Under the pieces are notes generated by a model. That model did no database searches. It saw only the letters and a program-made list of their open reading frames with translations, and was not told where the DNA came from. From the IMG/VR virus record IMGVR_UViG_2563366969_000006: a stretch of DNA of 19,074 nt; one strand, written 5' to 3'. This document shows positions 1,484 to 19,074 of the stretch, in pieces (positions within the stretch are counted from its first letter, which is position 1; the number at the start of each line of letters is the position of its first letter). The position numbers and the translations under genes were made by a program. Source of the DNA: a virus (lineage: Duplodnaviria > Heunggongvirae > Uroviricota > Caudoviricetes).

Positions 1484-1798
1484 TCACGATAGTTCCGTTT
1501 TGTTGAATTCAATTATATCAAGGTCAGAACTTTCGTAATCCTTACCGAATAAAGCAAAACATATCGCGTCAAGTTCTCTCTTATGTTTGGACGCCCGATC
1601 ATAATTACCACCCCAACAGCAAATGAATCCACCAAGTACTGCTGATTCAAAAAGTAATGATGCTGCATCAATATGTCTGAACCAGGAGTCTATAAGTAAA
1701 GCAGAGAGTGATATTAATGTTCCCCACCCGCCAATCCTTCTCCATTTCTCAGCTTCATATTTAAGAGAAGCAATATATTCAATTTTATCTCTCGTCAT
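1484..1798 (-). CDS. Small membrane protein (104 aa, two predicted transmembrane helices), last gene of the large operon; function unknown
   Basis: ORF with TGATG stop-start overlap to the upstream gene; two hydrophobic segments (IGGWGTLISLSALLIDSWF and ASLLFESAVLGGFICCWGG); lower GC than upstream genes. Confidence 0.6.
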   Translation of the reverse strand: MTRDKIEYIASLKYEAEKWRRIGGWGTLISLSALLIDSWFRHIDAASLLFESAVLGGFICCWGGNYDRASKHKRELDAICFALFGKDYESSDLDIIEFNKTELS

Positions 1799-4554: not shown

Positions 4555-6614
4555 TATGGGTTCCTCAAGAAGCACGCTGCTGCTACAGAATAAACCTTCG
4601 ATTCGTTCTGGACTGTCTTAATCTGTTCATCCAACTCAGCCAGGAGATCAGAAAGTTTTGTCGGGTTTCCGGTTTCCGGGTGAGCTATAGTCAGCTCAGG
4701 ATTGGCAACAGCCATGTCCCTGGCAGCCATAAGGTCATAGCTGTTGGATGAGAGAACCTGCCCTGTATCTGGATCAACGCTGATGTCCCCTCTGTGTTCA
4801 CCAGCCGATGAGAAAGCACTTTCAGCACGAGGGACAGGCGATTCACTAATTGGCTCTGATGATGTTTCGTATCTGACACCATTTTCTTCAAAAACCTTTT
4901 GTATTTCATGGTATTGCTCTTGGTAAGTATCAGATATATCTGATCGCAATGGACCATCAAGCCCTCGCGCCATCCCCCCAACATTTACAGGCTGACCATC
5001 ATTAAGTTGCCTGTATGCTTCATCCATGGCGTCAACATGGCTGTTGATGCTCTCATTGCTGGTATGAAGCACTGGTGACGATTCAATATCGTAATGAAGC
5101 CCCTCATTCAAAATGTGGGCTGCATCAATATCGCTTGGTTTTATTCTTTCCCTCGCCCGGATACCAAAAACTTTTTCTACTGCGGCTTCCAGTTTCATAT
5201 TGCGAAGACGCATACTTACGAGTAACCGTAACTGCTCAGGTGTAACGGTTCCAACCTGAATACCACTGTATCTGAATATATAGGCTTTAAAACCTGAAAT
5301 AATTTTTTCCCATGATGAAACGCTTGTCTTTAGAGATGGATTTACTGCATGTGCGGCAACTTCTTCAGCGTACAACCACTCAGGATATGTTTCAGGGTAC
5401 TCACCCCTTTTCTTATATTCATAATATTGTGACATCCCATATGCAAATTCAGGATAGTCAGAATGCTTGTTTGCAGATTTAAGTACAGCATTAGCTAGCT
5501 TTCTGGCCTTCCAGTCAGGGTAATGGCGCTGCTCAAGATGAAGCGCCTCGTGATGAAGGGTTTCTAACAGTTCTTCATGGTCTTTTAATCCATTAATATT
5601 TATTCTTATTATTGGTTCTTTTCCGGAAGCTACTGTCACATGACCTTTATTCAGAAGTATTTCTCCATCACTATTTTTTATTGCTGGTTCATTAATAAGT
5701 TCTATTACTCCTGAATCAGATAAATCACGAACCATTGACTCAATGTTACCATCAGGAGATTGCTGATAATGTTCACCAAAAGTTGATTTTATTTCTTCTG
5801 CAGAAATGTTCGACTCTGTACCATCATGGTTATTATGGGTAGTCAGGTGATGAACGCCACCAAAGACCCCGCCTAAAACGGCATCGACTAACATCGCCTG
5901 ACCGTCAAATACCCGGTACTGTTTTGCCATCTCCGTGTAGCCTTTTTCCTCCAGTGTTGCGCCTACTGAGTAACGGTTCAGTCCACCGAATCCGGTGTTG
6001 ATTGCCACACCTGAGGCAATGCGCGTTGCCAGTGTGGTGCCGACGGCAGCGGGTAAGGCCATACCCACAGCATTGAAAAGGCTCTGCTGCGTTGCCAGGT
6101 TACGCGCTGTAGCCTCGTCTACTCCCTTCCCTTTAAAATCCTGATAGGACTGCTCATACGTAGAACTGAAGGCTGTAGCAGCGCCGATGAGCGGACCACC
6201 AAACATAGTTGTTCCGATTGCAGGAACAAATTTACCAAGCTCATTTAATACCTCAGCCGCCATTCCCTGGCTGCCTGCATCAGGCTTCACATAGCTGCGG
6301 GCATCCTGTAACTGTTTTCCGATCGTGTCGTATGTATCATTCAGTGTTTTGTCAGCATCAGGGAACATCTCCCGAAAAATATTAACTGTCGGTGCCACGT
6401 CTGCGGTAAATGCCGGATCGCTAATCAGACGCTTGCTGAATCCGACGGCAGACTGCGCGAGACCGAGAGCCCCCTCCGCCACGCCGCTCAAAAGTGCAGT
6501 ACCTGAACCCTGGAAGGGAGTCGGATCGTAGTCTTCTGGCCTTGCTGGGTTGGCAACTGTTTTGTCGTCAATCCATGCCTGACCTTCTGGAGCCAAAGAA
6601 AAAACATCAGACAT
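4554..6614 (-). CDS. Large hypothetical protein (686 aa) with an HExxH (HEALH) zincin-like motif and Gly/Ala-rich hydrophobic region
   Basis: Long ORF; TAATG overlap with the upstream 843-aa gene; GAGGG ribosome-binding site; ETLHHEALHLEQRH encoded around 5534-5560; no P-loop. Confidence 0.75.
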   Translation of the reverse strand: MSDVFSLAPEGQAWIDDKTVANPARPEDYDPTPFQGSGTALLSGVAEGALGLAQSAVGFSKRLISDPAFTADVAPTVNIFREMFPDADKTLNDTYDTIGKQLQDARSYVKPDAGSQGMAAEVLNELGKFVPAIGTTMFGGPLIGAATAFSSTYEQSYQDFKGKGVDEATARNLATQQSLFNAVGMALPAAVGTTLATRIASGVAINTGFGGLNRYSVGATLEEKGYTEMAKQYRVFDGQAMLVDAVLGGVFGGVHHLTTHNNHDGTESNISAEEIKSTFGEHYQQSPDGNIESMVRDLSDSGVIELINEPAIKNSDGEILLNKGHVTVASGKEPIIRININGLKDHEELLETLHHEALHLEQRHYPDWKARKLANAVLKSANKHSDYPEFAYGMSQYYEYKKRGEYPETYPEWLYAEEVAAHAVNPSLKTSVSSWEKIISGFKAYIFRYSGIQVGTVTPEQLRLLVSMRLRNMKLEAAVEKVFGIRARERIKPSDIDAAHILNEGLHYDIESSPVLHTSNESINSHVDAMDEAYRQLNDGQPVNVGGMARGLDGPLRSDISDTYQEQYHEIQKVFEENGVRYETSSEPISESPVPRAESAFSSAGEHRGDISVDPDTGQVLSSNSYDLMAARDMAVANPELTIAHPETGNPTKLSDLLAELDEQIKTVQNESKVYSVAAACFLRNP

Positions 6615-9145
6615 TATTCAACCCTCACGACAATAGCTTTATTGGTTCTGGGATCTGTTGCCCAGCGTCCGCTACCATTTACAAGCCGATACCGGTTATT
6701 GCCGATATTAACTGGCGTGAAATTTGACACTGCATTTACGTTAAGTCCGGCATCTTTCAGTGCTTGTTTCGCAGATGTGGTATAGCGATCTTTGAAAGTA
6801 GATTTATCCATGCCAAAAGGCATTACAACGTCGCCGCCATTAAAACCATTGTATATACCGCCAGTAGCATACTTCACGGCATCAGCTACAATGTCTGTAT
6901 CAGGCATACTGGTTCTTACCGTAGAGGCATCACCAGATTGATAAGCTATTCCTGCGTAAGCGGCTTTGAAAAGGCTATAACTGATCTGGCGTAACTGCGG
7001 GTTACGGGCAAATGCATTACCTACCTGTTCGTCGAAAGCGTCTTTCATCTTATCTTCGCTCGGCAACTGTACCGGAGTTATGCCCGCATTCTTCATGGCC
7101 TTCGTCGGATTCAGTAGTTGGTCGCCGGAAAGAATAACCTTTGCAACGTCGTACTTGTTCATCGTCGGCTTATACCCGATGAACTGACTATATGGGATCG
7201 TCGGCCTGGTGTTGTCGTACTGGTTATCCGGCGTGCCCAGCAGCAGCGCAGAATAGGCTGTTGCCGCACTGTTCGGAGCAATTACAGATGCCACCTGCCG
7301 TATTGCTGGCGCAGGCAGCTTCTCCCCCATGCTCTGCAACAGTTTAATTGTCTGGTCAACGTTCTGAGTGCCGCGCACCTGCTGTGCCAGCGCAGCCGCC
7401 TCTTCACTGTTGAGGAGTGGGGCATTAATTCCCAACGCGCGTAAGCTTTCCTGCGACGAGAAACGGTTAGCCACCTCGGCAGTGATGTCGTCAGGGTTGT
7501 TGCTGGTGATCGGCTTATAGGCTCCGATTTCCACCGCTGCACTAAACGGATTATTCTGCCTCTGGGTTATTACCTTCGTGGCTGCCGCCGATACCCGGTC
7601 GAATAACTCCGCACGAGACGCATACCCCTCCCCTGTCTCACCAGTATCCGGGCGTAATTGCTCAACATATGCGGTAATGCTGCTTGTCGGCATGTTGCGG
7701 AAAGAGCCTATATACTGTCCGGCGATCTGCAAATTTCTGAACTCGGTATATCGCAGGTTTCCTTCTCTGACACCATAAGCAGCAATGAACTCACCCTCAC
7801 CAGGCGGGTTAGGAAATTCAACGCCACGCATATACGCAGCCGTTGCATCGCGAACCCGGCTTTCGAGCATCGTTCTATATTCAGCCTGCTGCTGTCTGGC
7901 TAATGCATCCGTCTGTCGCAACACGCTGGCCTGATCTGATTCACTTAAAGCATCGAACCAGGCTACACCGGTATAACGTTTATTTTTTGTCGGTAGCTGA
8001 GAAAGCCCCAGTGCGGCACTAACGCCAGCGGCCAATTGCTGATCACTGTACGGCTGACTGCCTTGCTCATGATGAATAATTGCTTTGCACAGAGATTTCA
8101 GTGTGTCAGGATTTGATGCGTCAAGCGGCTGGTCAGGAGTTACACCGAGCTGAGCACATACTGCCCGTATATAAGCATCAGTTTTATTATCATCACTGGC
8201 CGGTGCCCAGCGATTAATTATTTCGCTGATGGTGTCATAACCCTGACGCTGATACGACAGCAAATTGCGACCAAGCGCGCGAATACCGTGTTCAGGGGTT
8301 TCGAATTTGGCAAAGCGACCATCATCACCAGTCTGCCCAACCCACGGATTAGTTTTGCTGTATTCAAGATTGCCGGGGTTATTGTTGCGTATACCGCGGG
8401 TACGATCGGAAGAGCCACTATCTGCTACAGCACGGCGAGATCCAGCAGCAGTATCGCTTAACTCGCCATTTTGCTGTCTTACCTGAAGATAGTTTGCTCC
8501 AATAGCATTTTGAGCAGTTGCTTTTGCTGTTGCTTCTTTAAACTCGATTTTCTTGGCCTGGATTTGCTCGTCGCTCCAGCCATGCGCAATACCGTAATCC
8601 TCAATTTGCTGGAAAGTTTGCGTATTAGCCAATATGTATGCTGCGTTGTCGCCATATAATGCTGAGGCATTTTTACCATTATTCAGCAGTGTCGCCTGAA
8701 ACTGGCCTTCTTCGTAGGCATTTATTTGCCCTATCTCGTACCTCCCGGCCTGCGTAGCGAACTGAATACGCTGCTGCTGCGCCTGCTGCATGAAAGCATT
8801 ACGAGCCTGTTCATCCGGCAGCGACATAGCCAGTTGTTCGATCTGAGCATCAAACTGCTGTGTATACTCATGGCCTTTTCCAATAGCATTTTTCCCTTTC
8901 AGGTTAAGCAATCCTGTTTCAGGATTATTCAGCAGATCACTGCCTGTCTGACTGAGTTTAAGGGATGCCTCCTGAATCAAGGCAATATTGGCACGCTGTT
9001 TTGCCTGACCAAAAACATCAATTGCCTCTGCCCCTGCCCGAACAAAAGCATCACCAATACCTGGCTGAGAAAACGTCTGCAAGCCTGCTGACTGAACTCC
9101 ACGGCTCTCAACCTGACGTCCGGATACTGTTGGTACGACTGGCAT
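6614..9145 (-). CDS. Large hypothetical protein (843 aa), Gln/Ala-rich, with a conserved-looking block GIRNNNPGN...W.G...G.FA.F (possible peptidoglycan-hydrolase-like or virion-associated domain; unverified)
   Basis: Long ORF with a strong AGGAGG ribosome-binding site 6 nt upstream of the ATG; motif block encoded around 8155-8395; no P-loop. Confidence 0.75.
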   Translation of the reverse strand: MPVVPTVSGRQVESRGVQSAGLQTFSQPGIGDAFVRAGAEAIDVFGQAKQRANIALIQEASLKLSQTGSDLLNNPETGLLNLKGKNAIGKGHEYTQQFDAQIEQLAMSLPDEQARNAFMQQAQQQRIQFATQAGRYEIGQINAYEEGQFQATLLNNGKNASALYGDNAAYILANTQTFQQIEDYGIAHGWSDEQIQAKKIEFKEATAKATAQNAIGANYLQVRQQNGELSDTAAGSRRAVADSGSSDRTRGIRNNNPGNLEYSKTNPWVGQTGDDGRFAKFETPEHGIRALGRNLLSYQRQGYDTISEIINRWAPASDDNKTDAYIRAVCAQLGVTPDQPLDASNPDTLKSLCKAIIHHEQGSQPYSDQQLAAGVSAALGLSQLPTKNKRYTGVAWFDALSESDQASVLRQTDALARQQQAEYRTMLESRVRDATAAYMRGVEFPNPPGEGEFIAAYGVREGNLRYTEFRNLQIAGQYIGSFRNMPTSSITAYVEQLRPDTGETGEGYASRAELFDRVSAAATKVITQRQNNPFSAAVEIGAYKPITSNNPDDITAEVANRFSSQESLRALGINAPLLNSEEAAALAQQVRGTQNVDQTIKLLQSMGEKLPAPAIRQVASVIAPNSAATAYSALLLGTPDNQYDNTRPTIPYSQFIGYKPTMNKYDVAKVILSGDQLLNPTKAMKNAGITPVQLPSEDKMKDAFDEQVGNAFARNPQLRQISYSLFKAAYAGIAYQSGDASTVRTSMPDTDIVADAVKYATGGIYNGFNGGDVVMPFGMDKSTFKDRYTTSAKQALKDAGLNVNAVSNFTPVNIGNNRYRLVNGSGRWATDPRTNKAIVVRVE

Positions 9146-9573: not shown

Positions 9574-9813
9574 CTGTGCTTACTTCTGGTAGTTACGCCA
9601 TACTGATTTCCCGATCCCATCTATCCCCATTTCTTTTTCAGTGCGTTTAAGCGACCGTTTCAGGTCTTCTAAATTATCCGGTTGCTTCGGTGGCCTCTGC
9701 GCCTTCCTGGAACATTCCAGTCGTCGCATTGATATGTAATACCGTTCCTTGTCAGTTCCCCAACTGCATTACTTCACCCCATCGCGCCGCCGCTCTTCGG
9801 TACAGGGTTTTAG

Positions 9814-10230
9814 TTAGCCTCCGACTCTTCCGTAGTGCTGTTCTGGTGGATTCACATAGCCCCTTTCTTGCAGGTATTCGCGAATATCAGACATCAGGAG
9901 ACGGTTAACCGTGCTCTTGTCTTTTCTCCGGTAAAGGCGTCTGGTGATCATGAAGTAGTTAGCAATGATCTCCGGTATATCCCTGACGCTGATACATGCT
10001 GTATGCTGGTCAATAGCTTCAATCATCTCTTCACGAGTTACAAAAGTCTGGCGTAAACGAGTGATCACACCATGTACATCTGAATGATCATTTATACGCT
10101 TATTTTGGCGCTTCGCGCTCTCGACTGTGACACTGACAACAATGTCAACTCTTTGTTTTTCCGCAATTTCATCCACAATGTGATCACCTGCACGGCGACC
10201 ATGTGCGTGATCATTTCTTACTATTTCCAT
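9814..10230 (-). CDS. Hypothetical protein (138 aa), His-rich N-terminus
   Basis: ORF with GGAGGAG ribosome-binding site; overlaps the 3' end of the ProQ/FinO gene by 20 nt; no family recognised. Confidence 0.5.
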
Positions 10231-10708
10231 TCATCTCCTCCAGTAGTTTTCCTGCGTGCGTCTGTTGTAGTGGTGTTACCTCGCCGCACGGCTGGCCTTT
10301 CAGGTCGTAACGCGCGCCACCAGCTACCAGGGCGCGGTAATAGCGCGGAGTCTGCACATAACGCGCCAGCGTTGCGCGTAGTGTTCCCTGTCCGAGTGAA
10401 ATACCTCTCGCGGCAATATCCTGTATCAGGTCGTCAAATATCCCCACCTTAAGCGGCTTAGGTGATTCCTGGCTGAATAATTCAGGCCATAGCTCAATAA
10501 GACGGTTAACGCGTCTGCGGTTTTTACGCTGCTGTTTGGTCATACGCCGCCGCGGTGTTGCTCCTGTGAGCTTCTGCTGTGTGTTCTGGTTATCTGGCAT
10601 CACTTTATGCGCCGATGTGGTTTTATTCTGCTGCTGCGCCGCCTGTGCTGTTTTCTGCGGCGTGCCGTAAATGCCCTTCGGTTTTCTGTTTATGGTCAGC
10701 TTTGTCAT
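10211..10708 (-). CDS. ProQ/FinO-family RNA-binding protein (165 aa) with a basic N-terminal extension
   Basis: The segment [60 protein letters not shown] aligns by eye with the ProQ N-terminal FinO domain (LKIGIFQDL...LRSALRLYTSSWRYL...RVDLDGNPCGE). Confidence 0.7.
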
Positions 10709-11380: not shown

Positions 11381-13507
11381 TTAATCTTCTGCTTCAGGCT
11401 GGAACATCAGCACGTAAAAAATATGTTGCTTCCCGCCAATCCTGCCGAGCGCCTTTTTCTTGTAACGGCGGTCGCCTCCCGCTTCCAGCATTCCGGCTGC
11501 ACTCAACGCGCGGGCAAAGTGAGACGGATTAAATCCCTGTGCTATCTCACCCTCAAACACATGCGGGAACGTGTAAAAACGGAACTCGTCATCTTCGTTT
11601 CTGATACTCCCCTTTCTGTATCCGGCAAGGTCTTTAATCGGTAAATCACGCTCGTCGCTGTTTGGATAGGGAAGGTATCGACTGAACCCGAACGACGACA
11701 AAAACGCCTCAGCCTGTTCAACCATCTGTTTAAATTCCCTGTTGCCCGTGCCGAATTCCTTCACCCAGGCATTAAAGTTATGCTGAACTGCATCACGGCA
11801 CGCCTGAACATCCCAGCCTGTAACATGACCGGAAAGCACAAGCGCGGCCTCCAGTACGGCGAATCTTTCCCCCACACGGTGAACCTGCTCGCCGTAGCTC
11901 TCCGGTATCAGGTTGCGCCACCGCTCGCGACATGCCCTTACCGCGTCCTTTGCCTCCTGCTGGTGGCCTGCCAGCCATTTAACCCACTCACGACCTGCCG
12001 CCCCGTGATTTTCTGTCCAGGCATCTTTTAACGCGTCTGCGTGCGCCTTTCCGGTGCTGTATTCGTGAAACTGCGAGGCCTTTTCCATCGGTACGTTAAG
12101 CAGACGGACAAGCTGCCCCGCTTTAATTTTTATCCCTTCCGTTTTGAGGAATGTTTCAACGTCCATTTCTCCGGTGCTGATTGCCACCGTGCGCCAGTGT
12201 TTTATCTCCCTGTTGCCGCCGTCCTTCGCCCCCTGTAATTTCCCGGAACCGTTAAACAGCGTATAGGCTGACGTGGACACCTCCCGTGCGTTTCCGGCCT
12301 GGCCTATTTCATCCAGGGGTAACAGCCCGTCATTATGTGCTTCGGCCTCGTTGGCGATACCTAACGCCGTTCCGTACCAGGTCAGCCGTTGCGCGTCCGG
12401 CTCTCCCCATAAACTTGATGCAATGTTCTGTGTGGTGGTTTTACCTGCTGATGATTGCTCAAAAAGATGAACCCCGAAGCCGTCAGCACCCACCAGCCCG
12501 ATTAATGGTGCAGATAGCGATACCGCCACACCCAGCATCATGGACGGATTACCACCAGCCAGCCGTGCCACGGTATCGCGCCAGCCCTCCGCTGTTCCCG
12601 CCACGGAATAGCCATTAACAGCGGCAGTTTTTCCGGTAAACAGGATGGGTTTCTCTGATTCACCGATGATCGAACCATCCGGCATGATGTACGCACCAAA
12701 ATGCCACCCCGTTGTTGTGCTTAACTGCCATTCCTCATGGTTTCCGCTTAACTGCATCCAGTCAGCCAGGATAGCCCTGTATTTGCCGTTGGTCGTCACG
12801 TTAAGGCCGTGGTCTTTCAGCAACCGCCAGCCGTCACGGTCACCAATGCCTCCGCACGGGACCGCCATTGTAATGACCTCATGGTTTGCTGGTTTTTTCC
12901 AGCGCATCACGCGGTAATGCTCTTTGCCGATTGTTCCTGTTCCCAGTAGTTCAAGCGGAGAACATAACCACGTCTCAGGCCGGATAATTTCGCCTGACTG
13001 CTTGTCCACTTTGGGCGTTACCCAGAAAACACCATCGACGCGACTTTCAACACGAGGCTTTAATTCGTCATCATAATTTCCGGTGAAATTTGTCTTCGCC
13101 GGAAGGTTGATCACCAGACTGTTACCGCGTTCCGCATCATACTTCAGTCCAGCCATGCGCGGAGTCCAGTCCTCCGGCTGCTGATCAACAAAGCTGCGGT
13201 AGCAACGCGCCTCCTTCACACCCGCCACTGCAAGCAGTGTCGCTATCTGTGTAAGGTGCTGCTCTGATATTTCACCAGCACGATAAATGCGCACGTAATA
13301 GCGTCCTTTGTCGATGATTTGCGTGTCTGCCAGACTCGCCAGTTGTTCCGGTCCAAGAATAACTGGATGTGTATCATCTGCCGCAATATGCTTTCCGGCC
13401 CATTCGCTCCACTCTTTCGCATGTGCCCAGGCATCACTACCCGCAAAGATAATCACCTCCGTCATTTTGTCTTTCGGCTGGTGCTTTAAATTCGGTGCGC
13501 GTTTCAT
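11381..13507 (-). CDS. Replication protein, primase/helicase-like (708 aa; P4 alpha-like role, DUF927-type P-loop helicase domain)
   Basis: Walker A-like SSAGKTT and Walker B-like LLPLDE in the central region; ATGA start-stop overlap with the upstream gene; adjacent iterons. Confidence 0.65.
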   Translation of the reverse strand: MKRAPNLKHQPKDKMTEVIIFAGSDAWAHAKEWSEWAGKHIAADDTHPVILGPEQLASLADTQIIDKGRYYVRIYRAGEISEQHLTQIATLLAVAGVKEARCYRSFVDQQPEDWTPRMAGLKYDAERGNSLVINLPAKTNFTGNYDDELKPRVESRVDGVFWVTPKVDKQSGEIIRPETWLCSPLELLGTGTIGKEHYRVMRWKKPANHEVITMAVPCGGIGDRDGWRLLKDHGLNVTTNGKYRAILADWMQLSGNHEEWQLSTTTGWHFGAYIMPDGSIIGESEKPILFTGKTAAVNGYSVAGTAEGWRDTVARLAGGNPSMMLGVAVSLSAPLIGLVGADGFGVHLFEQSSAGKTTTQNIASSLWGEPDAQRLTWYGTALGIANEAEAHNDGLLPLDEIGQAGNAREVSTSAYTLFNGSGKLQGAKDGGNREIKHWRTVAISTGEMDVETFLKTEGIKIKAGQLVRLLNVPMEKASQFHEYSTGKAHADALKDAWTENHGAAGREWVKWLAGHQQEAKDAVRACRERWRNLIPESYGEQVHRVGERFAVLEAALVLSGHVTGWDVQACRDAVQHNFNAWVKEFGTGNREFKQMVEQAEAFLSSFGFSRYLPYPNSDERDLPIKDLAGYRKGSIRNEDDEFRFYTFPHVFEGEIAQGFNPSHFARALSAAGMLEAGGDRRYKKKALGRIGGKQHIFYVLMFQPEAED

Positions 13508-13806
13508 TTCTTGCCCCTGAATGCGTTAATCATGTTCTTTATTACCTGAATATTTGCCCGTGCTTTCTCTTTACTGGTGGGCTTACTGCGTGGTGCTGCA
13601 CATACCAGTGAAAAATCACGCCGGAACTGATGAACGGGCATCACACAGTCATAGTCGTACCCTGCGCGGCGGTATGTAATGTGCCGTTCATACACGGAAT
13701 TAATAACCACGCTGTCGCCATATTTATCCCGGAAAATATCCCCGATCCTGATTTTCGGATGAGTCTGTCCGCTGGCATTTAAGCCAGTAAATTTAATCTT
13801 CTTCAT
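13504..13806 (-). CDS. Hypothetical protein (100 aa) directly upstream of, and coupled to, the replication gene
   Basis: ORF with ATGA overlap to the primase start; occupies the position held by epsilon/orf151 in the P4 operon (position analogy only). Confidence 0.5.
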   Translation of the reverse strand: MKKIKFTGLNASGQTHPKIRIGDIFRDKYGDSVVINSVYERHITYRRAGYDYDCVMPVHQFRRDFSLVCAAPRSKPTSKEKARANIQVIKNMINAFRGKK

Positions 13807-13808
13807 GT

Positions 13809-14066
13809 TTATTTCCCGGTGTGAGGTTCTTCTTTATATTTATGGGCTAACAAATCTGGTAATTGCCTGTATTTATCCTCGGCAATATATTCAGAATAAT
13901 CGACAGCACTGTTCAGTATATCTAACGCCGTTTCATGCTCCAGATTCGAAACTATAAGGAACGTTGCTACTTTTAGCATATTCGCGATATGCAAAAGAGC
14001 ATCAATTTCATTTTTTGGCGCTTCACTGAATTTTTGCTCCAGAAGAATAAATCGTTCATCACGCAT
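13809..14066 (-). CDS. Hypothetical protein (85 aa)
   Basis: ORF with AGGGGGAA ribosome-binding site; start overlaps the stop of the upstream 67-aa gene by 8 nt. Confidence 0.5.
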   Translation of the reverse strand: MRDERFILLEQKFSEAPKNEIDALLHIANMLKVATFLIVSNLEHETALDILNSAVDYSEYIAEDKYRQLPDLLAHKYKEEPHTGK

Positions 14067-14262
14067 AGTATTCCCCCTGACGGATGCGAGCAGTAAATAC
14101 CATCACGCAGCCAGCCGGGGATTGCTGACGGGCTTTCTGTTCGCTGGTGGCCTCGATGTGGATTACGCGCGGTTGTGCCGTGCTCAGGGCGATAAAACGC
14201 CAGATGTATTTATTCAGGTTGTGCGAGTCCCGCCCTTGCGGGTGTGTGGTATGATTTAACAT
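14059..14262 (-). CDS. Hypothetical protein (67 aa), first gene of the replication operon
   Basis: Internal ATG at 14260-14262 preceded by GAGGT; this is the C-terminal part of an implausible 386-aa ORF in the track. Confidence 0.45.
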   Translation of the reverse strand: MLNHTTHPQGRDSHNLNKYIWRFIALSTAQPRVIHIEATSEQKARQQSPAGCVMVFTARIRQGEYYA

Positions 14263-14343
14263 AGCTACCTCGATACGCTTTCTATCGTTGGTGGTTAGAC
14301 GCCCTGCATGTGTTGCGAGCACTGCGGGGCGTTGCTCTTTCAG

Positions 14344-14425
14344 GTGTATTTCACCTTTGCTTTTTAATTTACTCACTGGTGAAATACACTTCAAGCCTTT
14401 TTTTATCATTTTTTTTGCGTATACT
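14344..14425. promoter_or_regulatory. Divergent promoter/operator region: perfect 12-bp inverted repeat GTGTATTTCACC (14344-14355) / GGTGAAATACAC (14378-14389); candidate minus-strand promoter (-35 TTGAAG, -10 TAAATT) and plus-strand -10 TATACT (14420-14425)
   Basis: Inverted repeat seen directly; promoter hexamers are by-eye matches to consensus. Confidence 0.5.
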
Positions 14426-14455
14426 GACATACACCAATTTTTAGGAGATCCAGAA

Positions 14456-14635
14456 ATGGCAACTGGTGCAAAGAACGCAAAATCACAAATGACAACTGTC
14501 AGAATCCCACATGAAGTAATGGATGATATTGAGCAACTTAAAGAACCTGGCGAAAGTACCGCTGGTTTTTTAGTTACTGCCGCAAAAGGCGAGATCAAAC
14601 GCCGCCAGCGTCGCAAGGCCAAAGAGCAGGAGTAA
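14456..14635 (+). CDS. Small putative DNA-binding regulator (59 aa), possibly ribbon-helix-helix-like
   Basis: ATG at 14456 with AGGAGA ribosome-binding site 8 nt upstream; N-terminal TTVRIPHEVMDDIEQL resembles a beta-strand-helix RHH start; only plus-strand gene block in the island. Confidence 0.5.
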   Translation: MATGAKNAKSQMTTVRIPHEVMDDIEQLKEPGESTAGFLVTAAKGEIKRRQRRKAKEQE

Positions 14636-14692
14636 CCATCACCAGCGCCGTGGTGCGGTGAACTGTGGCGCACAGGGTTACAGGTATCTACG

Positions 14693-14890
14693 ATGACTGA
14701 CAAATCATTAAAGAAATTATCCTCATCCAGGAAAAAACAACGCAAAAATGCGGTAAGCGAACAAGAACAGGAAAGATTTGCGCCATGTGCGTTTGTCCTT
14801 GAGAAGTTCTTAAAAGAGTACAGGCGCACAAAAATGGAATCGCATACCTGGAAAACATCGCAGTATGGCGATGCTAAAGAGCAGGAATAG
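14693..14890 (+). CDS. Small basic hypothetical protein (65 aa)
   Basis: ORF downstream of the 59-aa gene, weak ribosome-binding site; shares a duplicated 3' end (AKEQE-stop) with it; followed by a terminator. Confidence 0.35.
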   Translation: MTDKSLKKLSSSRKKQRKNAVSEQEQERFAPCAFVLEKFLKEYRRTKMESHTWKTSQYGDAKEQE

Positions 14891-14980
14891 CCCACCAGCA
14901 AGCCAGCACACTGATCACATTGCCCACCAGCCGCAAATCTGGCATTGTTGGCGATGCGTTTGATTTCCTTTGTTCCCACT

Positions 14981-15008
14981 GGCGACCTATCCCGGTCGCC
15001 TTTGTTTT
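14981..15008 (+). terminator. Rho-independent terminator for the plus-strand small-gene unit
   Basis: Stem GGCGACC / GGTCGCC with 6-nt loop followed by TTTGTTTT; convergent with the Bro-N gene. Confidence 0.65.
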
Positions 15009-15058
15009 GCCTGTTATCCAGCAACGGGGCGCTTTTTCTTTCTGTAACGTTCGGATCG

Positions 15059-15616
15059 TTACACATTGCTTTCACCCTCCAGAAAATCAGGCTGATATTT
15101 ACGCCATAGCGCCCGCTCTTCTCGTTCCAGTGCATCTTTTGCCTCTTTGCATTGCTGTAACCTGTAACCGCGTTTGCTGGCTTCCTGTTGATATGCAGCC
15201 TGACGTTTACTGAAATCATTCAGCATGGCAAACGGAACACCATAACCCCCCGTTTTGCGGATTGAAGGAATCACCTCGCGGAATACCCAGTTACTGAAAC
15301 GGTGCGCAAATGTGCCTGGTGTGGAAGCTTTACGGCTGCGGACGATCAGTTTGTAGAAACCTGATTCAGAGACAACATTCCAGCTTCTGGCACCACCACG
15401 CTTACCGGAATGCCCCTCGGTTAAAGCTAGGGTCATTACCTCGTCGTTATCCAGAACTGAAACAGCATCAGTAACATTGCTGATTTCCTGCGCAGCACAC
15501 ACATCAGCGCCAACAAACCACGGCTCGCCGTTGATACTCACTATGCGCACCTGAATGTCATCGAATTTAATGACAGAGATTTCAGTGCGCCCGGCATAAA
15601 AGACAGGTTTACGCAT
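15059..15616 (-). CDS. Bro-N domain protein (185 aa), putative antirepressor
   Basis: N-terminal region (F.D..VRIVSINGEPWFVGADVCAA ... SGFYKLIVRSRKASTPGTFAHRFSNWVFREVIPSIRKTGGY) matches the Bro-N pattern from memory; GGAGGT ribosome-binding site; start overlaps the stop of the upstream gene. Confidence 0.7.
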   Translation of the reverse strand: MRKPVFYAGRTEISVIKFDDIQVRIVSINGEPWFVGADVCAAQEISNVTDAVSVLDNDEVMTLALTEGHSGKRGGARSWNVVSESGFYKLIVRSRKASTPGTFAHRFSNWVFREVIPSIRKTGGYGVPFAMLNDFSKRQAAYQQEASKRGYRLQQCKEAKDALEREERALWRKYQPDFLEGESNV

Positions 15617-16508: not shown

Positions 16509-16706
16509 TCAGGCAGCCGTTCCGCGTGATTCGGCAATACGCTGATTGATCCATTCGTCAATTTCACTTTCAACGAAAGCAATCGCTCGCGAGCCAATTT
16601 TAACTGATGCAGGAAATTTACCTTGCCCCATAAGGCGATAAATCCATGCCTTGCTATATCCAGTTCTACGCTGAACTTCTGTTAAACGAATAAGCGTATT
16701 TGACAT
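16509..16706 (-). CDS. alpA: AlpA-family transcriptional regulator / excisionase-like protein (65 aa)
   Basis: Size, position next to a P4-type integrase, and pattern (LTEVQRRTGYSKAWIYRLMGQGKFP...ESEIDEWINQR) characteristic of AlpA. Confidence 0.8.
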   Translation of the reverse strand: MSNTLIRLTEVQRRTGYSKAWIYRLMGQGKFPASVKIGSRAIAFVESEIDEWINQRIAESRGTAA

Positions 16707-16775: not shown

Positions 16776-16918
16776 ACCCTCAGGCCTAATGGTTACCGGA
16801 AGGAAATTAACCCTAAGGGTGATGGTAATCGGGAGGAAATCTACCCTAAGGGTGATGGTAAAATTGACGGGGAAGATAAAAAAATACCCTCAGGGTAACA
16901 GTAAATCACCCTCAGGGT
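16776..16918. promoter_or_regulatory. Array of four palindromic operator-like sites ACCCT-N-AGGGT (16810-16820, 16843-16853, 16886-16896, 16908-16918) plus a partial site at 16776-16784, in the alpA upstream region
   Basis: Seen directly; sites 1-2 share the longer unit ACCCTAAGGGTGATGGTAA; located in the 227-bp intergenic region 5' of alpA. Confidence 0.55.
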
Positions 16919-16933
16919 ATGCGGTATGGTGCG

Positions 16934-17737: not shown

Positions 17738-17859
17738 ACCTCAGCGTCCTCTACTGTAGTGGCTGTGCCAGCCCGTCGAGGTATACGGTTTTTCGGGAGC
17801 GACCCTAGACACAGCTTTTTCTTTCGTCGCTCAAAGTCTACTACTGTATACTCAACCAG

Positions 17860-19074
17860 TCATCCACATTTTCCGAACTTGCCATGCACCACGTTGCCGC
17901 CCTGTTCCAGTGAGTCCATATAGTCGGCGTACCACTGGAGCATCTCGCGCCGCCCGTCCAGATATTGCGCATGATTGTACGTGCCACGAATTGAGTTCTT
18001 ATCAACGTGTGCAAGCTGCGTTTCTATCCACGCGGTGTTATAGCCCTGCTCATGTAAAATCGTGCTCATCGTGTGCCGGAACCCATGACCAGTAACGCGC
18101 CCAGAATAGCCAATACGACGAATAAGCACGTTCATCGCCATTTCACTCATCGGCTTACTGTGCTGGATTCGACCAGGGAAAATAAACTGATACTGCCCCG
18201 TCATGTGTTTTAACTGTTCCAGAATAGCGATCGCCTGTTCTGAAAGCGGCACACAATGAGGACGGCGCATCTTCATTCGTTCTTTAGGCACTTCCCACAA
18301 ACGATTATCAAAATCGATCTCCTGCCATTCTGCCTGTCGTAATTCCCCTGGCCGGAGCCCTGTCAGAATCAATAATCGCATACCCAGCTTGACGATCTGG
18401 CTTCCGGTGTACGTATTAAGAACGCGGAAAAATTCCGGCAGTTCGTCGGCCTTCAAATAGGCATAATGCTCTTTTTTGTGTGGAGCAAATGCGCTTGCCA
18501 GATCTGGTGCGGGGTTATATTCAGCGCGTCCGGTGATGATTGCGTACCGGAACACCTCGCCGCATCGCTGGCGAACCTTACGCAATTTTTCGGTCGCCCC
18601 ACGGTCATTAAGACGGGAGAGAACCGCAAGCAACTCCATTGGCTTAATTTCTGCGATCGGCCTGCCGCCAATGTACGGAAAAACGTCTTTTTCAAACGTC
18701 TCGATCATTTCCTCGGCGTATGACGATGACCACCTGTCGATCCTCTTTTCATACCATTCGCGAGCGATACCCTCAAAAGTATTGCCAAATTTGCTCGCCT
18801 GTTCTCGCTTTTGAGCTTTTCTGGCCTCACTTGGATTTATACCACCAGCAAGAAGCCTTTTAGCCTCATCCCTTGCCGCTCTGGCATCAGACAGAGACAC
18901 ATCAGGGTACACGCCCAACGACAACATTTTGGGCTTTCCTGCAAATCTGTAACGTAGTCGCCACCCTTTCGAGCCGTTCGGCTCAATGAGTAACGAAAGC
19001 CCGTTACCGTCATTGAGTGTATAAGCCTTTTCTTTCGGCTTCGCGCGCCTGATAGCAAGGTCTGAAAGCAGCAT
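17860..19074 (-). CDS. int: Tyrosine recombinase, P4-family integrase (404 aa)
   Basis: N-terminus LSDLAIRRAKPKEKAYTLNDGNGLSLLIEPNGSKGWRLRY and C-terminal catalytic region HGFRHTMST...LAHVDKNSIRGTYNHAQYL follow the P4/CP4-57 IntA pattern; start codon coincides with the window end. Confidence 0.9.
   Translation of the reverse strand: MLLSDLAIRRAKPKEKAYTLNDGNGLSLLIEPNGSKGWRLRYRFAGKPKMLSLGVYPDVSLSDARAARDEAKRLLAGGINPSEARKAQKREQASKFGNTFEGIAREWYEKRIDRWSSSYAEEMIETFEKDVFPYIGGRPIAEIKPMELLAVLSRLNDRGATEKLRKVRQRCGEVFRYAIITGRAEYNPAPDLASAFAPHKKEHYAYLKADELPEFFRVLNTYTGSQIVKLGMRLLILTGLRPGELRQAEWQEIDFDNRLWEVPKERMKMRRPHCVPLSEQAIAILEQLKHMTGQYQFIFPGRIQHSKPMSEMAMNVLIRRIGYSGRVTGHGFRHTMSTILHEQGYNTAWIETQLAHVDKNSIRGTYNHAQYLDGRREMLQWYADYMDSLEQGGNVVHGKFGKCG

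What the first reader, a model, noticed from the sequence alone, without database searches (positions are those of the whole stretch)
13504..14262. Three coupled small genes (67, 85, 100 aa) leading the replication operon
These tightly overlapping ORFs sit where P4 encodes its early control and antirepression functions (kil, eta, epsilon, orf151) ahead of alpha. None is recognisable by eye, so they are candidates for helper-manipulation or replication-control factors.
Basis: inference. Interest (0 to 1): 0.4.

Follow-up and report, generated by a model that had tools for sequence, protein, structure and literature searches.

The report
Icd-led small-gene trio of a PICI satellite
The three small genes are real and conserved, and they head the replication operon of an E. 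coli phage-satellite island (PICI type, not P4): a cell-division inhibitor of the P1 Icd / P4 Kil family, a swappable helical protein, and an RgdR-type protein fused by start/stop overlap to the replicase.

Summary
Three minus-strand ORFs of 67, 85 and 100 aa sit at 14262-14059, 14066-13809 and 13806-13504. They are packed by an 8-nt overlap, a 2-nt gap and an ATGA overlap with a 708-aa DUF927 replicase.

Two of the three are recognisable.
- ORF1 belongs to the Icd/Kil family. It passes NF033153 and matches P1 Icd by profile. P4 Kil passes the same model.
- ORF3 is DUF4222/RgdR, 69% identical to O157 RgdR, but with IGD instead of RGD.
- ORF2 belongs to the commonest of 8 small-gene families that shuffle in the slot between the other two.

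The order Icd, then 1-5 slot genes, then DUF4222, then replicase holds in 86 related loci. The packing is the same and selection is purifying.

The element is a 19.1-kb tRNA-Gly island of the Gram-negative PICI type (int, AlpA, Bro zone, pri-rep, SSB, PerC). It is not P4-like.

Outside the given coordinates I found, by inference only, a candidate ~84-nt cis-antisense RNA over the ORF1 ribosome-binding site. I also found allele-specific triple operators next to a divergent YlcI/YnfO gene.

I propose that Icd translation gates the replication operon, as in P1 and P4. The genes are ordinary members of known kinds. The control region is the interesting part.

The parts
14059..14262 (-). ORF1, 67 aa, Icd/Kil-family small protein. 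It is the first cistron of the operon, with SD GAGG at 14271-14268.
   Evidence: NF033153 66.5 bits against a cut-off of 25. hhalign to P1 Icd gives prob 96.5%, E 7.6e-10, 37% identity over Icd residues 1-51. RefSeq names it 'host cell division inhibitor Icd-like protein'. dN/dS is 0.19.
13809..14066 (-). ORF2, 85 aa, a helical protein of the variable slot (family F1; phrog_24341/2512).
   Evidence: No Pfam or NCBIfam hit. PHROG hits at 5e-17 and 1e-16, function unknown. 11 clusters among 1.84 billion representatives. 22 ORF hits in the fetched loci, counting the window and its parent record. It falls in the largest of 8 slot families. The AF2 model has three helices, pLDDT 77. No significant fold or PDB match.
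13504..13806 (-). ORF3, 100 aa, a DUF4222/RgdR-family protein. Its stop overlaps the replicase start (ATGA).
   Evidence: PF13973 65.2 bits against a cut-off of 27. 69% identical to O157:H7 RgdR, with IGD in place of RGD. The AF2 model shows a beta-barrel core plus a C-terminal helix, pLDDT 74. Weak KOW/PWWP/DUF1653-like fold hits. dN/dS is 0.27.
11381..13507 (-). 708-aa DUF927 primase/helicase (pri-rep), translationally coupled to ORF3.
   Evidence: PF06048 1e-46 and phrog_1139 'DNA primase' 6e-174. Its N-terminal ~135 aa are shared at 40-56% identity with RepA-, primase- and DUF5906-type replicases that follow DUF4222 in other islands.
14366..14394 (-). Candidate promoter of the operon: TTGAAG (14394-14389), 17 nt, TAAATT (14371-14366).
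   Evidence: Read from the sequence. A TTGAC(A/G)/TTGAAG box aligns in 68 unique leaders. It was not reported by the simple consensus scan. This is an inference.
14343..14435 (.). Three copies of a type-specific repeat: GTGTATTTCACC at 14389-14378, GGTGAAATACACC at 14355-14343 (inverted), and GGTGTATGTCA at 14435-14425 next to the ylcI -10. These are candidate operators.
   Evidence: Each YlcI N-terminal variant among the loci has its own repeat sequence at the same three positions. About ten types were listed.
14262..14345 (+). Candidate ~84-nt cis-antisense RNA. Stem-loop I (14262-14297) holds the anti-SD CCUC at 14268-14271 and a variable 7-nt loop at 14276-14282. Stem-loop II is 14298-14333. 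The U-rich tail is 14334-14345. An extended -10, TGgTATGAT, lies at 14247-14255.
   Evidence: MFE is -38.0 kcal/mol, z -4.2, against -24.1, z -1.8, for the sense strand. RNAalifold gives -25.5 against -5.5 kcal/mol. 97.3% against 84.3% of cells are paired, with 167 G.U against 6. The -10 is conserved in 62 unique sequences. No Rfam family matches. Expression is not shown.
14456..14635 (+). Divergent YlcI/YnfO-family gene (59 aa). It is the candidate ribbon-helix-helix repressor of the operon.
   Evidence: NF041551 64 bits against a cut-off of 30. It lies divergently within 400 nt of icd in 71 of 89 loci. No functional literature was found.

Best explanation
The three ORFs are genuine protein-coding genes. 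They are the first three cistrons of the replication operon of a 19.1-kb Gram-negative PICI-type phage satellite integrated at tRNA-Gly.

Shown:
- ORF1 is a member of the Icd/Kil family (P1 Icd, P4 Kil).
- ORF3 is a member of the DUF4222/RgdR family.
- ORF2 belongs to a family of small helical proteins that shuffles with seven other families in the slot between them.
- The chain Icd, slot genes, DUF4222, replicase is conserved, and its start/stop junctions suit translational coupling.

Inferred from the P1 and P4 precedents:
- After induction, a promoter at 14394-14366 drives one mRNA.
- Translation of ORF1 is the gate. When its ribosome-binding site is free, ribosomes pass down the coupled chain to the replicase. 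When it is blocked, the downstream genes are silenced by loss of coupling and by polarity.
- The Icd-like product itself most likely stalls host division by acting on FtsZ while the island replicates.
- The basic, SH3-like RgdR-type protein most likely works with the shared N-terminal domain of the replicase, or on DNA nearby.
- ORF2 is an exchangeable accessory factor whose target is unknown.

Inferred from comparative sequence analysis:
- The gate is held shut by a cis-antisense RNA over the ORF1 SD and start codon.
- A YlcI/YnfO repressor binding three type-specific operators also holds it shut.
For: Gene reality and packing.

ORF1 is Icd/Kil. P1 Icd binds FtsZ, and its active core (aa 12-51) is the part that aligns with ORF1 (PMC11897509).

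In P1, icd overlaps ant1 by 4 nt and is annotated as apparently required for expression of ant. The C4 target b2 lies just upstream of icd. In P4 the C4-family CI RNA sits 55 nt upstream of kil.

ORF3 is RgdR family. RgdR shows non-specific DNA binding and is encoded by all analysed E. coli PICIs.

PICI context.

Antisense RNA.

Operators and YlcI.

The invariant leader motif occurs in at least 120 IMG/VR contigs, mostly of satellite size.
Against: - There are no expression, translation or phenotype data for any part.
- ORF1 is only about 36% identical to P1 Icd, so FtsZ targeting is extrapolated.
- The gating model is borrowed from P1 and P4, whose C4/CI RNA is absent here.
- The antisense promoter has no -35 box, and the window's terminator tail is only moderately U-rich (7 U in 12 nt). 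The simple scan did not call it.
- The variable loop changes at roughly the synonymous rate. It may be unconstrained rather than a specificity determinant.
- The operator/YlcI correspondence could partly reflect linkage of adjacent DNA.
- All the replicases share an N-terminal domain. The DUF4222-replicase junction may therefore be one inherited block, not independent evidence of a functional partnership.
- The only experiments on RgdR concern T3SS and motility regulation, not replication.
Confidence: 0.6

Rival explanations
1. One reading: these are P4-style early control and antirepression genes (counterparts of kil, eta, epsilon and orf151) that derepress or manipulate a P2-like helper.
For: The position ahead of the replicase is the same. 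ORF1 is truly homologous to P4 Kil.
Against: ORF2 and ORF3 have no similarity to any P4 product. The island has PICI gene content, and no psu, sid or delta is annotated. Dedicated AntA/AntB and BRO-N genes lie elsewhere in the island. Related islands carry lambda/HK97-type capsid modules or sit inside lambdoid prophages.
Confidence: 0.1
2. ORF3, and perhaps ORF2, is chiefly a host-directed regulator (a 'moron'), like RgdR, which activates the LEE type III secretion system and represses motility. On this reading it is not a satellite life-cycle gene.
For: RgdR (ECs1581) activates LEE1 and represses motility. The CFT073 orthologue does the same. PICI papers list it as a virulence accessory gene.
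Against: The gene is present in all analysed E. coli PICIs, including strains without LEE. Its stop overlapped a replicase start in 86 of 86 cases. The motif residue that gave RgdR its name is not kept here: IGD here, and R, I, P, N or C across the family. RgdR's DNA binding was non-specific.
Confidence: 0.15
3. ORF1 is mainly a regulatory leader ORF.
For: It is always the first cistron and always overlaps the next gene. Structured, conserved RNA covers its ribosome-binding site.
Against: The protein sequence is under purifying selection, dN/dS 0.19. The conserved residues coincide with the FtsZ-inhibiting core of P1 Icd.
Confidence: 0.12
4. The leader hairpins act in the sense mRNA or at the DNA level (an attenuator, an RNase site or a protein-binding site), and there is no antisense RNA.
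For: The sense strand can also form both hairpins, with 84% of cells paired. No -35 box exists for the antisense promoter. There are no expression data.
Against: There are 167 G.U cells on the + strand against 6 on the sense strand. The consensus energy is -25.5 against -5.5 kcal/mol. The window z-scores are -4.2 against -1.8. A U-rich tail follows stem-loop II only on the + strand.
Confidence: 0.3

Closest known systems
Phage P1 immI operon (c4 RNA - icd - ant1/ant2)
   Same: An Icd-family small ORF is the first cistron and overlaps the next gene. An RNA complementary to its ribosome-binding site lies immediately upstream. P1 Icd targets FtsZ.
   Different: No C4-family RNA is present. The candidate regulator here is a cis-encoded countertranscript. 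The downstream genes are slot genes, RgdR and a replicase, not an antirepressor.
Satellite phage P4 left operon (PLE - CI RNA - kil/eta - epsilon - orf151 - alpha)
   Same: Kil is an Icd-family protein. It heads the operon that ends in the replicase. The immunity RNA sits in the leader.
   Different: No isrK or C4 RNAs, and no epsilon, orf151, psu, sid or delta. The replicase is of a different kind. The island is PICI-like. A hybrid does exist: E. albertii locus L005 has an isrK+C4 leader followed by DUF4222 and a replicase.
E. coli PICIs and cf-PICIs (EcCICFT073; O157 OI-51/CP-933C)
   Same: The order is the same: int, AlpA, (Bro zone), Icd-like, small genes, RgdR, pri-rep, SSB, PerC.
   Different: The late/capsid zone is replaced by three large ORFs (843, 686 and 925 aa) with no Pfam or PADLOC match. 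A ProQ/FinO gene is present. The island is 19.1 kb.
RgdR (ECs1581) of E. coli O157:H7
   Same: 69% identity, the same length, and the same position directly upstream of a DUF927 replicase.
   Different: IGD replaces RGD. T3SS or motility effects are untested here.
Phage P22 immI (Arc/Mnt ribbon-helix-helix repressors plus sar antisense RNA) and plasmid countertranscripts such as the R1162/RSF1010 75-nt RNA (from my own knowledge; a functional analogy only)
   Same: The design is the same: a small repressor with operators, plus a short cis-antisense RNA over the ribosome-binding site of the first gene. There is a weak sub-threshold Rfam hit to RF00043, 18 bits against 55.
   Different: No sequence or covariance-model homology. 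Membership is not claimed.

Membership tests
Icd-like host cell division inhibitors (NCBIfam NF033153; P1 Icd, P4 Kil) | Scores above the curated cut-off of the family model | tested here: met
   66.5 bits against a cut-off of 25. P4 Kil scores 73.9 bits.
Icd-like host cell division inhibitors (NCBIfam NF033153; P1 Icd, P4 Kil) | Detectable homology to the founding member, P1 Icd, over its active core (aa 12-51) | tested here: met
   hhalign prob 96.5%, E 7.6e-10, aligned to Icd residues 1-51. The core is defined in PMC11897509.
Icd-like host cell division inhibitors (NCBIfam NF033153; P1 Icd, P4 Kil) | Inhibits cell division / binds FtsZ | not testable with these tools
   This needs expression and two-hybrid or pull-down assays.
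C4/CI antisense RNA immunity (Rfam RF01695, with isrK RF01394 and c4-a1b1 RF03163) | Covariance-model match upstream of the icd/kil gene | tested here: not met
   No hit, even at E<=10, in 13400-15100 or at gathering score in the whole window. P4 and locus L005 give 75-78 bits as positive controls.
DUF4222 / RgdR family (Pfam PF13973) | Pfam model above the gathering score | tested here: met
   65.2 bits against 27.
DUF4222 / RgdR family (Pfam PF13973) | RGD tripeptide at residues 20-22, which gave RgdR its name | tested here: not met
   The window protein has I-G-D. G and D are invariant, and the first position varies (R, I, P, N, C) across 21 homologues.
DUF4222 / RgdR family (Pfam PF13973) | Activates LEE1/T3SS and represses motility | not testable with these tools
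   Experimental phenotype (PMC3378721).
Gram-negative PICI (Fillol-Salom 2018; Mageeney 2023 four-zone plan) | Integrase at one end with flanking att repeats | tested here: met
   Tyrosine integrase at 17860-19074. A 19-nt direct repeat lies 19,118 bp apart, with one copy in tRNA-Gly.
Gram-negative PICI (Fillol-Salom 2018; Mageeney 2023 four-zone plan) | AlpA-family regulator next to int | tested here: met
   PF05930 69.4 bits at 16509-16706. The int-alpA RNA motif RF02996 scores 46.9 bits.
Gram-negative PICI (Fillol-Salom 2018; Mageeney 2023 four-zone plan) | Own primase/replicase (pri-rep) and SSB | tested here: met
   DUF927 protein and SSB.
Gram-negative PICI (Fillol-Salom 2018; Mageeney 2023 four-zone plan) | Late zone with packaging or capsid genes (terS, capsid, rppA and similar) | tested here: not met
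   None is annotated. The downstream ORFs have no Pfam or PADLOC match. Relatives L002 and L010-L013 do have such genes.
Gram-negative PICI (Fillol-Salom 2018; Mageeney 2023 four-zone plan) | Induction and mobilisation by a helper phage | not testable with these tools
   Experimental.
P4-like satellites | Core genes psu, delta, sid, epsilon and an alpha-type primase | tested here: not met
   tblastn of ORF1-3 against P4 gives only chance hits. No psu, sid or delta appears in the RefSeq annotation of the island. The relation of alpha to the DUF927 protein was not compared.
Cis-encoded antisense (countertranscript) RNAs, a functional class | Opposite-strand promoter, stem-loops, an intrinsic terminator, and full complementarity to the target ribosome-binding site | tested here: inconclusive
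   The structure and its strand asymmetry are met. An extended -10 is conserved but there is no -35. The tail is U-rich but weak in this window. No transcript data exist.
YlcI/YnfO family (NF041551) as a ribbon-helix-helix repressor | Family model above cut-off, and cognate operators at the regulated promoters | tested here: inconclusive
   64 bits against 30. Type-specific triple repeats track the YlcI N-terminal variants. The RHH fold and DNA binding were not tested; only a weak DUF7557 hit was seen.

The most novel reading that the evidence does not exclude
Most E. coli PICI-type satellites carry an undescribed immunity module at the head of their replication operon. It has two parts. The first is an ~84-nt cis-antisense RNA that masks the SD and start codon of the Icd-like gate ORF and matches no Rfam family. 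The second is an allele-specific YlcI/YnfO ribbon-helix-helix repressor with three operators over the divergent promoters. If so, this module would be a candidate for the repressor whose existence the 2018 PICI paper called unclear for Gram-negative PICIs. Translation of Icd would be the checkpoint for satellite replication.
Probability: 0.4. Interest if true: 0.65.

Novelty: new member of a known kind. Interest (0 to 1): 0.45.

Why it matters
The three genes are ordinary members of annotated families. Their constant arrangement does matter, though. Matches to at least part of this module occur in 2036 of 5426 complete E. coli genomes. It suggests that an FtsZ-type division inhibitor and an RgdR-type protein are core life-cycle parts of Gram-negative PICIs and are not virulence add-ons.

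Reading RgdR as a replicase partner would change how its reported effects on T3SS and motility in EHEC are understood.

The candidate antisense RNA and the YlcI operators give concrete, cheap experiments on an open question: how Gram-negative PICIs are kept silent and switched on.

Tried and rejected
- Rfam, at gathering score and at E<=10, found no C4, isrK, sar or other family over the leader. There was only an 18-bit sub-threshold R1162 hit.
- tblastn of the three proteins against 50,697 phage records found one weak ORF1 hit and none for ORF2 or ORF3.
- The word-indexed protein search found only 2 near-identical ORF2 hits. The full HMMER scan found 11 clusters.
- Foldseek of the ORF2 model against PDB gave no hit with E<=0.001.
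- PDB sequence and profile searches gave nothing for any of the three.
- I first read the 12-bp inverted repeat at 14389-14343 as an RNA hairpin in the leader. I dropped that reading because the likely promoter lies between the arms and the repeat is type-specific.
- I looked for correlated changes between the loops of the two leader hairpins, and between either loop and the purine-rich spacer. I found none.
- I considered the junction with 'four different replicase families' as independent evidence for DUF4222-replicase coupling. I weakened it after finding that the replicases share an N-terminal domain.
- PADLOC and Pfam gave nothing for the three large cargo ORFs.
- The genome-contig scan with the DUF4222 alignment returned only 6 loci.
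Full report
**1. The observation**

The window's minus strand carries three ORFs.
- ORF1 is at 14262-14059 (67 aa).
- ORF2 is at 14066-13809 (85 aa).
- ORF3 is at 13806-13504 (100 aa).
- A 708-aa ORF follows at 13507-11381.

ORF1 and ORF2 overlap by 8 nt (ATGCGTGA). ORF2 and ORF3 are 2 nt apart. ORF3 and the large ORF share ATGA.

The mechanical ORF list extends ORF1 to 15219. The ATG at 14262 has GAGG 6 nt upstream. It is the RefSeq start and it aligns with the start of about 85 homologues.

**2. Where the window comes from**

The region is 100% identical to the chromosome of E. coli Z1323CEC0019. The RefSeq gene order, read along the minus strand, is as follows.
- tRNA-Gly, integrase, a hypothetical gene and an HTH protein. 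The HTH protein is AlpA (PF05930, 69 bits).
- AntA/AntB and BRO-N.
- YlcI/YnfO and a small hypothetical gene, both on the other strand.
- An Icd-like gene, a hypothetical gene and a DUF4222 gene, which are the three ORFs of the finding.
- The DUF927 protein, SSB, ProQ/FinO, a hypothetical gene and a frameshifted PerC.
- Three large hypothetical proteins.

A 19-nt direct repeat, with one copy inside tRNA-Gly, bounds a 19.1-kb island.

This is the plan of Gram-negative PICIs: an integration zone, a Bro zone, a replication zone and a late zone (PMC10111431; PMC6092414). O157:H7 OI-51/CP-933C has the same order and adds a capsid module. Four other E. coli islands show the same order. Two of them are embedded in prophage late genes.

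No psu, sid or delta is annotated. The element is therefore PICI-like and not P4-like.

**3. ORF1**

ORF1 passes the NCBIfam Icd-like model at 66.5 bits against a cut-off of 25. A profile of PICI homologues plus P4 Kil matches P1 Icd with 96.5% probability (E 7.6e-10) over Icd residues 1-51.

P1 Icd was recently shown to bind FtsZ and block the Z-ring. Residues 12-51 are sufficient for this (PMC11897509).

The old P4 'cI' ORF contains the 65-aa Kil frame, and it passes the same model at 73.9 bits. Pairwise BLAST gives E 0.59.

In P1, icd overlaps ant1 by 4 nt and is annotated as apparently required for ant expression. The C4 target b2 lies next to its start. In P4 the C4-family CI RNA lies 55 nt upstream of kil.

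**4. ORF3**

ORF3 is a DUF4222 protein (65 bits against 27). It is 69% identical to the O157:H7 protein WP_000770148. That protein matches the description of RgdR/ECs1581: 99 aa, RGD at 20-22, and a position directly upstream of the DUF927 gene.

What is known about RgdR:
- It activates LEE1 and represses motility.
- It binds DNA non-specifically (PMC3378721).

The window protein has IGD instead of RGD. Across 21 homologues that first position is R, I, P, N or C, while G and D are invariant.

An AlphaFold2 model (pLDDT 74) shows a four-strand beta core with a short helix, followed by a long C-terminal helix. Foldseek gives only weak matches: E about 0.01-0.1 to KOW, PWWP and TnsB barrels, and 3e-4 to small uncharacterised and DUF1653 viral proteins. 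This fits a small nucleic-acid-binding protein but proves nothing.

**5. ORF2**

ORF2 has no Pfam or NCBIfam match. It hits two PHROGs of unknown function. A full HMMER scan of 1.84 billion representatives found 11 clusters. Several of these are gene-call fusions with the preceding Icd.

The single-sequence model is a three-helix bundle with pLDDT 77 and no meaningful fold match.

Among the fetched loci, 22 ORFs hit ORF2, counting the window and its parent record. ORF2 belongs to the largest (62 members) of only 8 families that fill the slot between icd and DUF4222. The slot holds 1 to 5 genes, and F1 occurs in up to three or four copies per island.

**6. Conservation**

Matches to at least part of the region occur in 2036 of 5426 complete E. 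coli genomes. Icd and DUF4222 are conserved and the middle is variable.

In 86 loci from E. coli, Shigella, E. albertii, E. ruysiae, Serratia and IMG/VR contigs:
- the gene after icd always overlaps the icd stop by 4-14 nt;
- DUF4222 starts 2-6 nt after the preceding stop in 81 loci;
- every DUF4222 gene ends in ATGA (75) or GTGA (11), which starts an ORF that reaches at least 300 aa in the 82 loci with enough sequence.

The replicases are annotated as DUF927, primase, RepA helicase or DUF5906. All but one share an N-terminal ~135-aa domain at 40-56% identity. The junction may therefore be one inherited block.

Median dN/dS is 0.19 for icd and 0.27 for DUF4222. ORF2 relatives give pN/pS of 0.44-0.68 at saturated pS.

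**7. The control region (outside the given coordinates)**

I aligned 68 unique leaders. They show four features.

(a) A promoter-like TTGAC(A/G) or TTGAAG box, 17 nt, then TAAATT. In the window this is 14394-14366.

(b) Three copies of a 10-13-nt repeat: two flanking the -10 of this promoter and one at the -10 of the divergent ylcI gene.
- The repeat sequence differs between islands.
- It tracks the N-terminal variant of YlcI/YnfO one-to-one across about ten types.
- That N-terminus reads like a ribbon-helix-helix strand; a weak DUF7557 hit points the same way.
- A divergent ylcI lies within 400 nt of icd in 71 of 89 loci.
- I found no functional literature on this family.

(c) A G+C-rich hairpin with compensatory changes.

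(d) An invariant CTAACCACCAACGATA-N7-TATCGAGGTAGCTATG block, with 12 different 7-nt loops among 56 unique sequences. The block occurs in at least 120 IMG/VR contigs.

**8. Which strand carries the structure**

| Measure | Window + strand (antisense to icd) | Sense strand |
|---|---|---|
| RNAalifold consensus energy | -25.5 kcal/mol | -5.5 kcal/mol |
| Cells forming a standard pair, 22 consensus pairs x 56 sequences | 97.3% | 84.3% |
| G.U cells | 167 | 6 |
| Window sequence 14262-14345, MFE and z-score | -38.0 kcal/mol, z -4.2, 0 of 200 shuffles as good | -24.1 kcal/mol, z -1.8 |

The + strand RNA folds into two clean stem-loops followed by an unpaired U-rich tail. An extended -10 (TGgTATGAT, 14247-14255) lies inside icd codons 3-5. 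It is conserved, or improved to TATAAT, in 62 unique sequences. There is no -35 box.

I therefore propose an ~84-nt cis-antisense RNA whose first stem-loop is complementary to the icd SD and start codon. No Rfam family matches it. One related island, L005 from E. albertii, carries a P4-type isrK+C4 leader ahead of its icd/kil, DUF4222 and replicase genes instead. The same gene chain can thus sit behind either kind of RNA leader.

**9. Mechanism**

Shown: gene identities, packing, conservation, and the RNA structure with its strand bias.

Inferred from P1 and P4:
- Translation of the Icd-like ORF is the checkpoint for the coupled chain down to the replicase.
- The Icd-like protein probably arrests division through FtsZ.
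- The RgdR-type protein probably assists the replicase or binds nearby DNA. The published T3SS and motility effects may be a side effect of a basic DNA-binding protein.
- ORF2 is an exchangeable accessory factor.

Inferred from comparison of sequences: the checkpoint is closed by the antisense RNA and by YlcI bound to its operators. The design resembles P22 immI and plasmid countertranscripts by analogy only (my own knowledge, not tested).

**10. Verdict**

The P4 interpretation is partly supported.

The genes are annotated members of known families in a known kind of satellite, so I class the finding as a new member of a known kind. The PICI papers I could read do not discuss the Icd-like gene, the YlcI gene or an antisense RNA of this kind. 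They treat RgdR only as a virulence accessory. The regulatory module is therefore the part worth testing.

Noticed in passing
window 1798-9145 (-), plus 1484-1798: Three large co-directional, overlapping ORFs (843, 686 and 925 aa) and a 104-aa ORF sit where related PICIs carry capsid and packaging genes. None has a Pfam or PADLOC match. They may be an unknown cargo or defence operon.
   Followed up: partly
window 14456-14635 (+) and repeats at 14343-14435: A YlcI/YnfO-family gene lies divergent from the operon. Type-specific triple repeats at both promoters track YlcI N-terminal variants in about ten types and 71 of 89 loci. It is a candidate repressor, and no literature was found.
   Followed up: partly
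window 10211-10708 (-): The island encodes its own ProQ/FinO-family protein (PF04352, 87 bits). None of the five related islands whose annotation I read has one. FinO-domain proteins chaperone cis-antisense RNA pairs (my own knowledge), so it may act on the candidate antisense RNA.
   Followed up: no
window 17748-17815 (-): An int-alpA RNA motif (RF02996, 46.9 bits, above gathering score) lies between the integrase and the 267-aa ORF. It is also present in locus L006.
   Followed up: no
window 16789-16854 and 16881-16919: Two tandem 33-nt repeats and two 17-nt repeats lie between alpA and the 267-aa ORF, upstream of alpA (L001 coordinates minus 1701). They may be regulator-binding sites of the alpA promoter.
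   Followed up: no
window 11381-13507 (-) and loci L010-L093: Replicases annotated as four different families (DUF927, primase, RepA helicase, DUF5906) share an N-terminal ~135-aa domain at 40-56% identity. This domain always follows DUF4222. The replicases look modular.
   Followed up: partly
L005:4350-4538 (E. albertii NBRC 107761): This is a hybrid island. A P4-type isrK+C4 immunity leader and a kil-like gene are followed by a slot gene, DUF4222 and a replicase with the same ATGA junction.
   Followed up: partly
L012:6176-6846 and L010:6245-6867: In ATCC 25922 and O103:H2 12009, a truncated upstream gene abuts the ylcI cassette. In ATCC 25922 that gene is annotated as a partial Icd-like protein. 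It looks as if the ylcI-operator-leader unit was inserted or swapped as a block.
   Followed up: no
LR881103.1 (Escherichia phage vB_KppS-Ant, 16.5 kb): This was the only phage-collection record with an ORF1 relative (56% identity). It is a 16.5-kb 'induced prophage', which is satellite size.
   Followed up: no
window 9580-9729 region (-): The PerC-family regulator is annotated as a frameshifted pseudogene in the identical RefSeq record.
   Followed up: no
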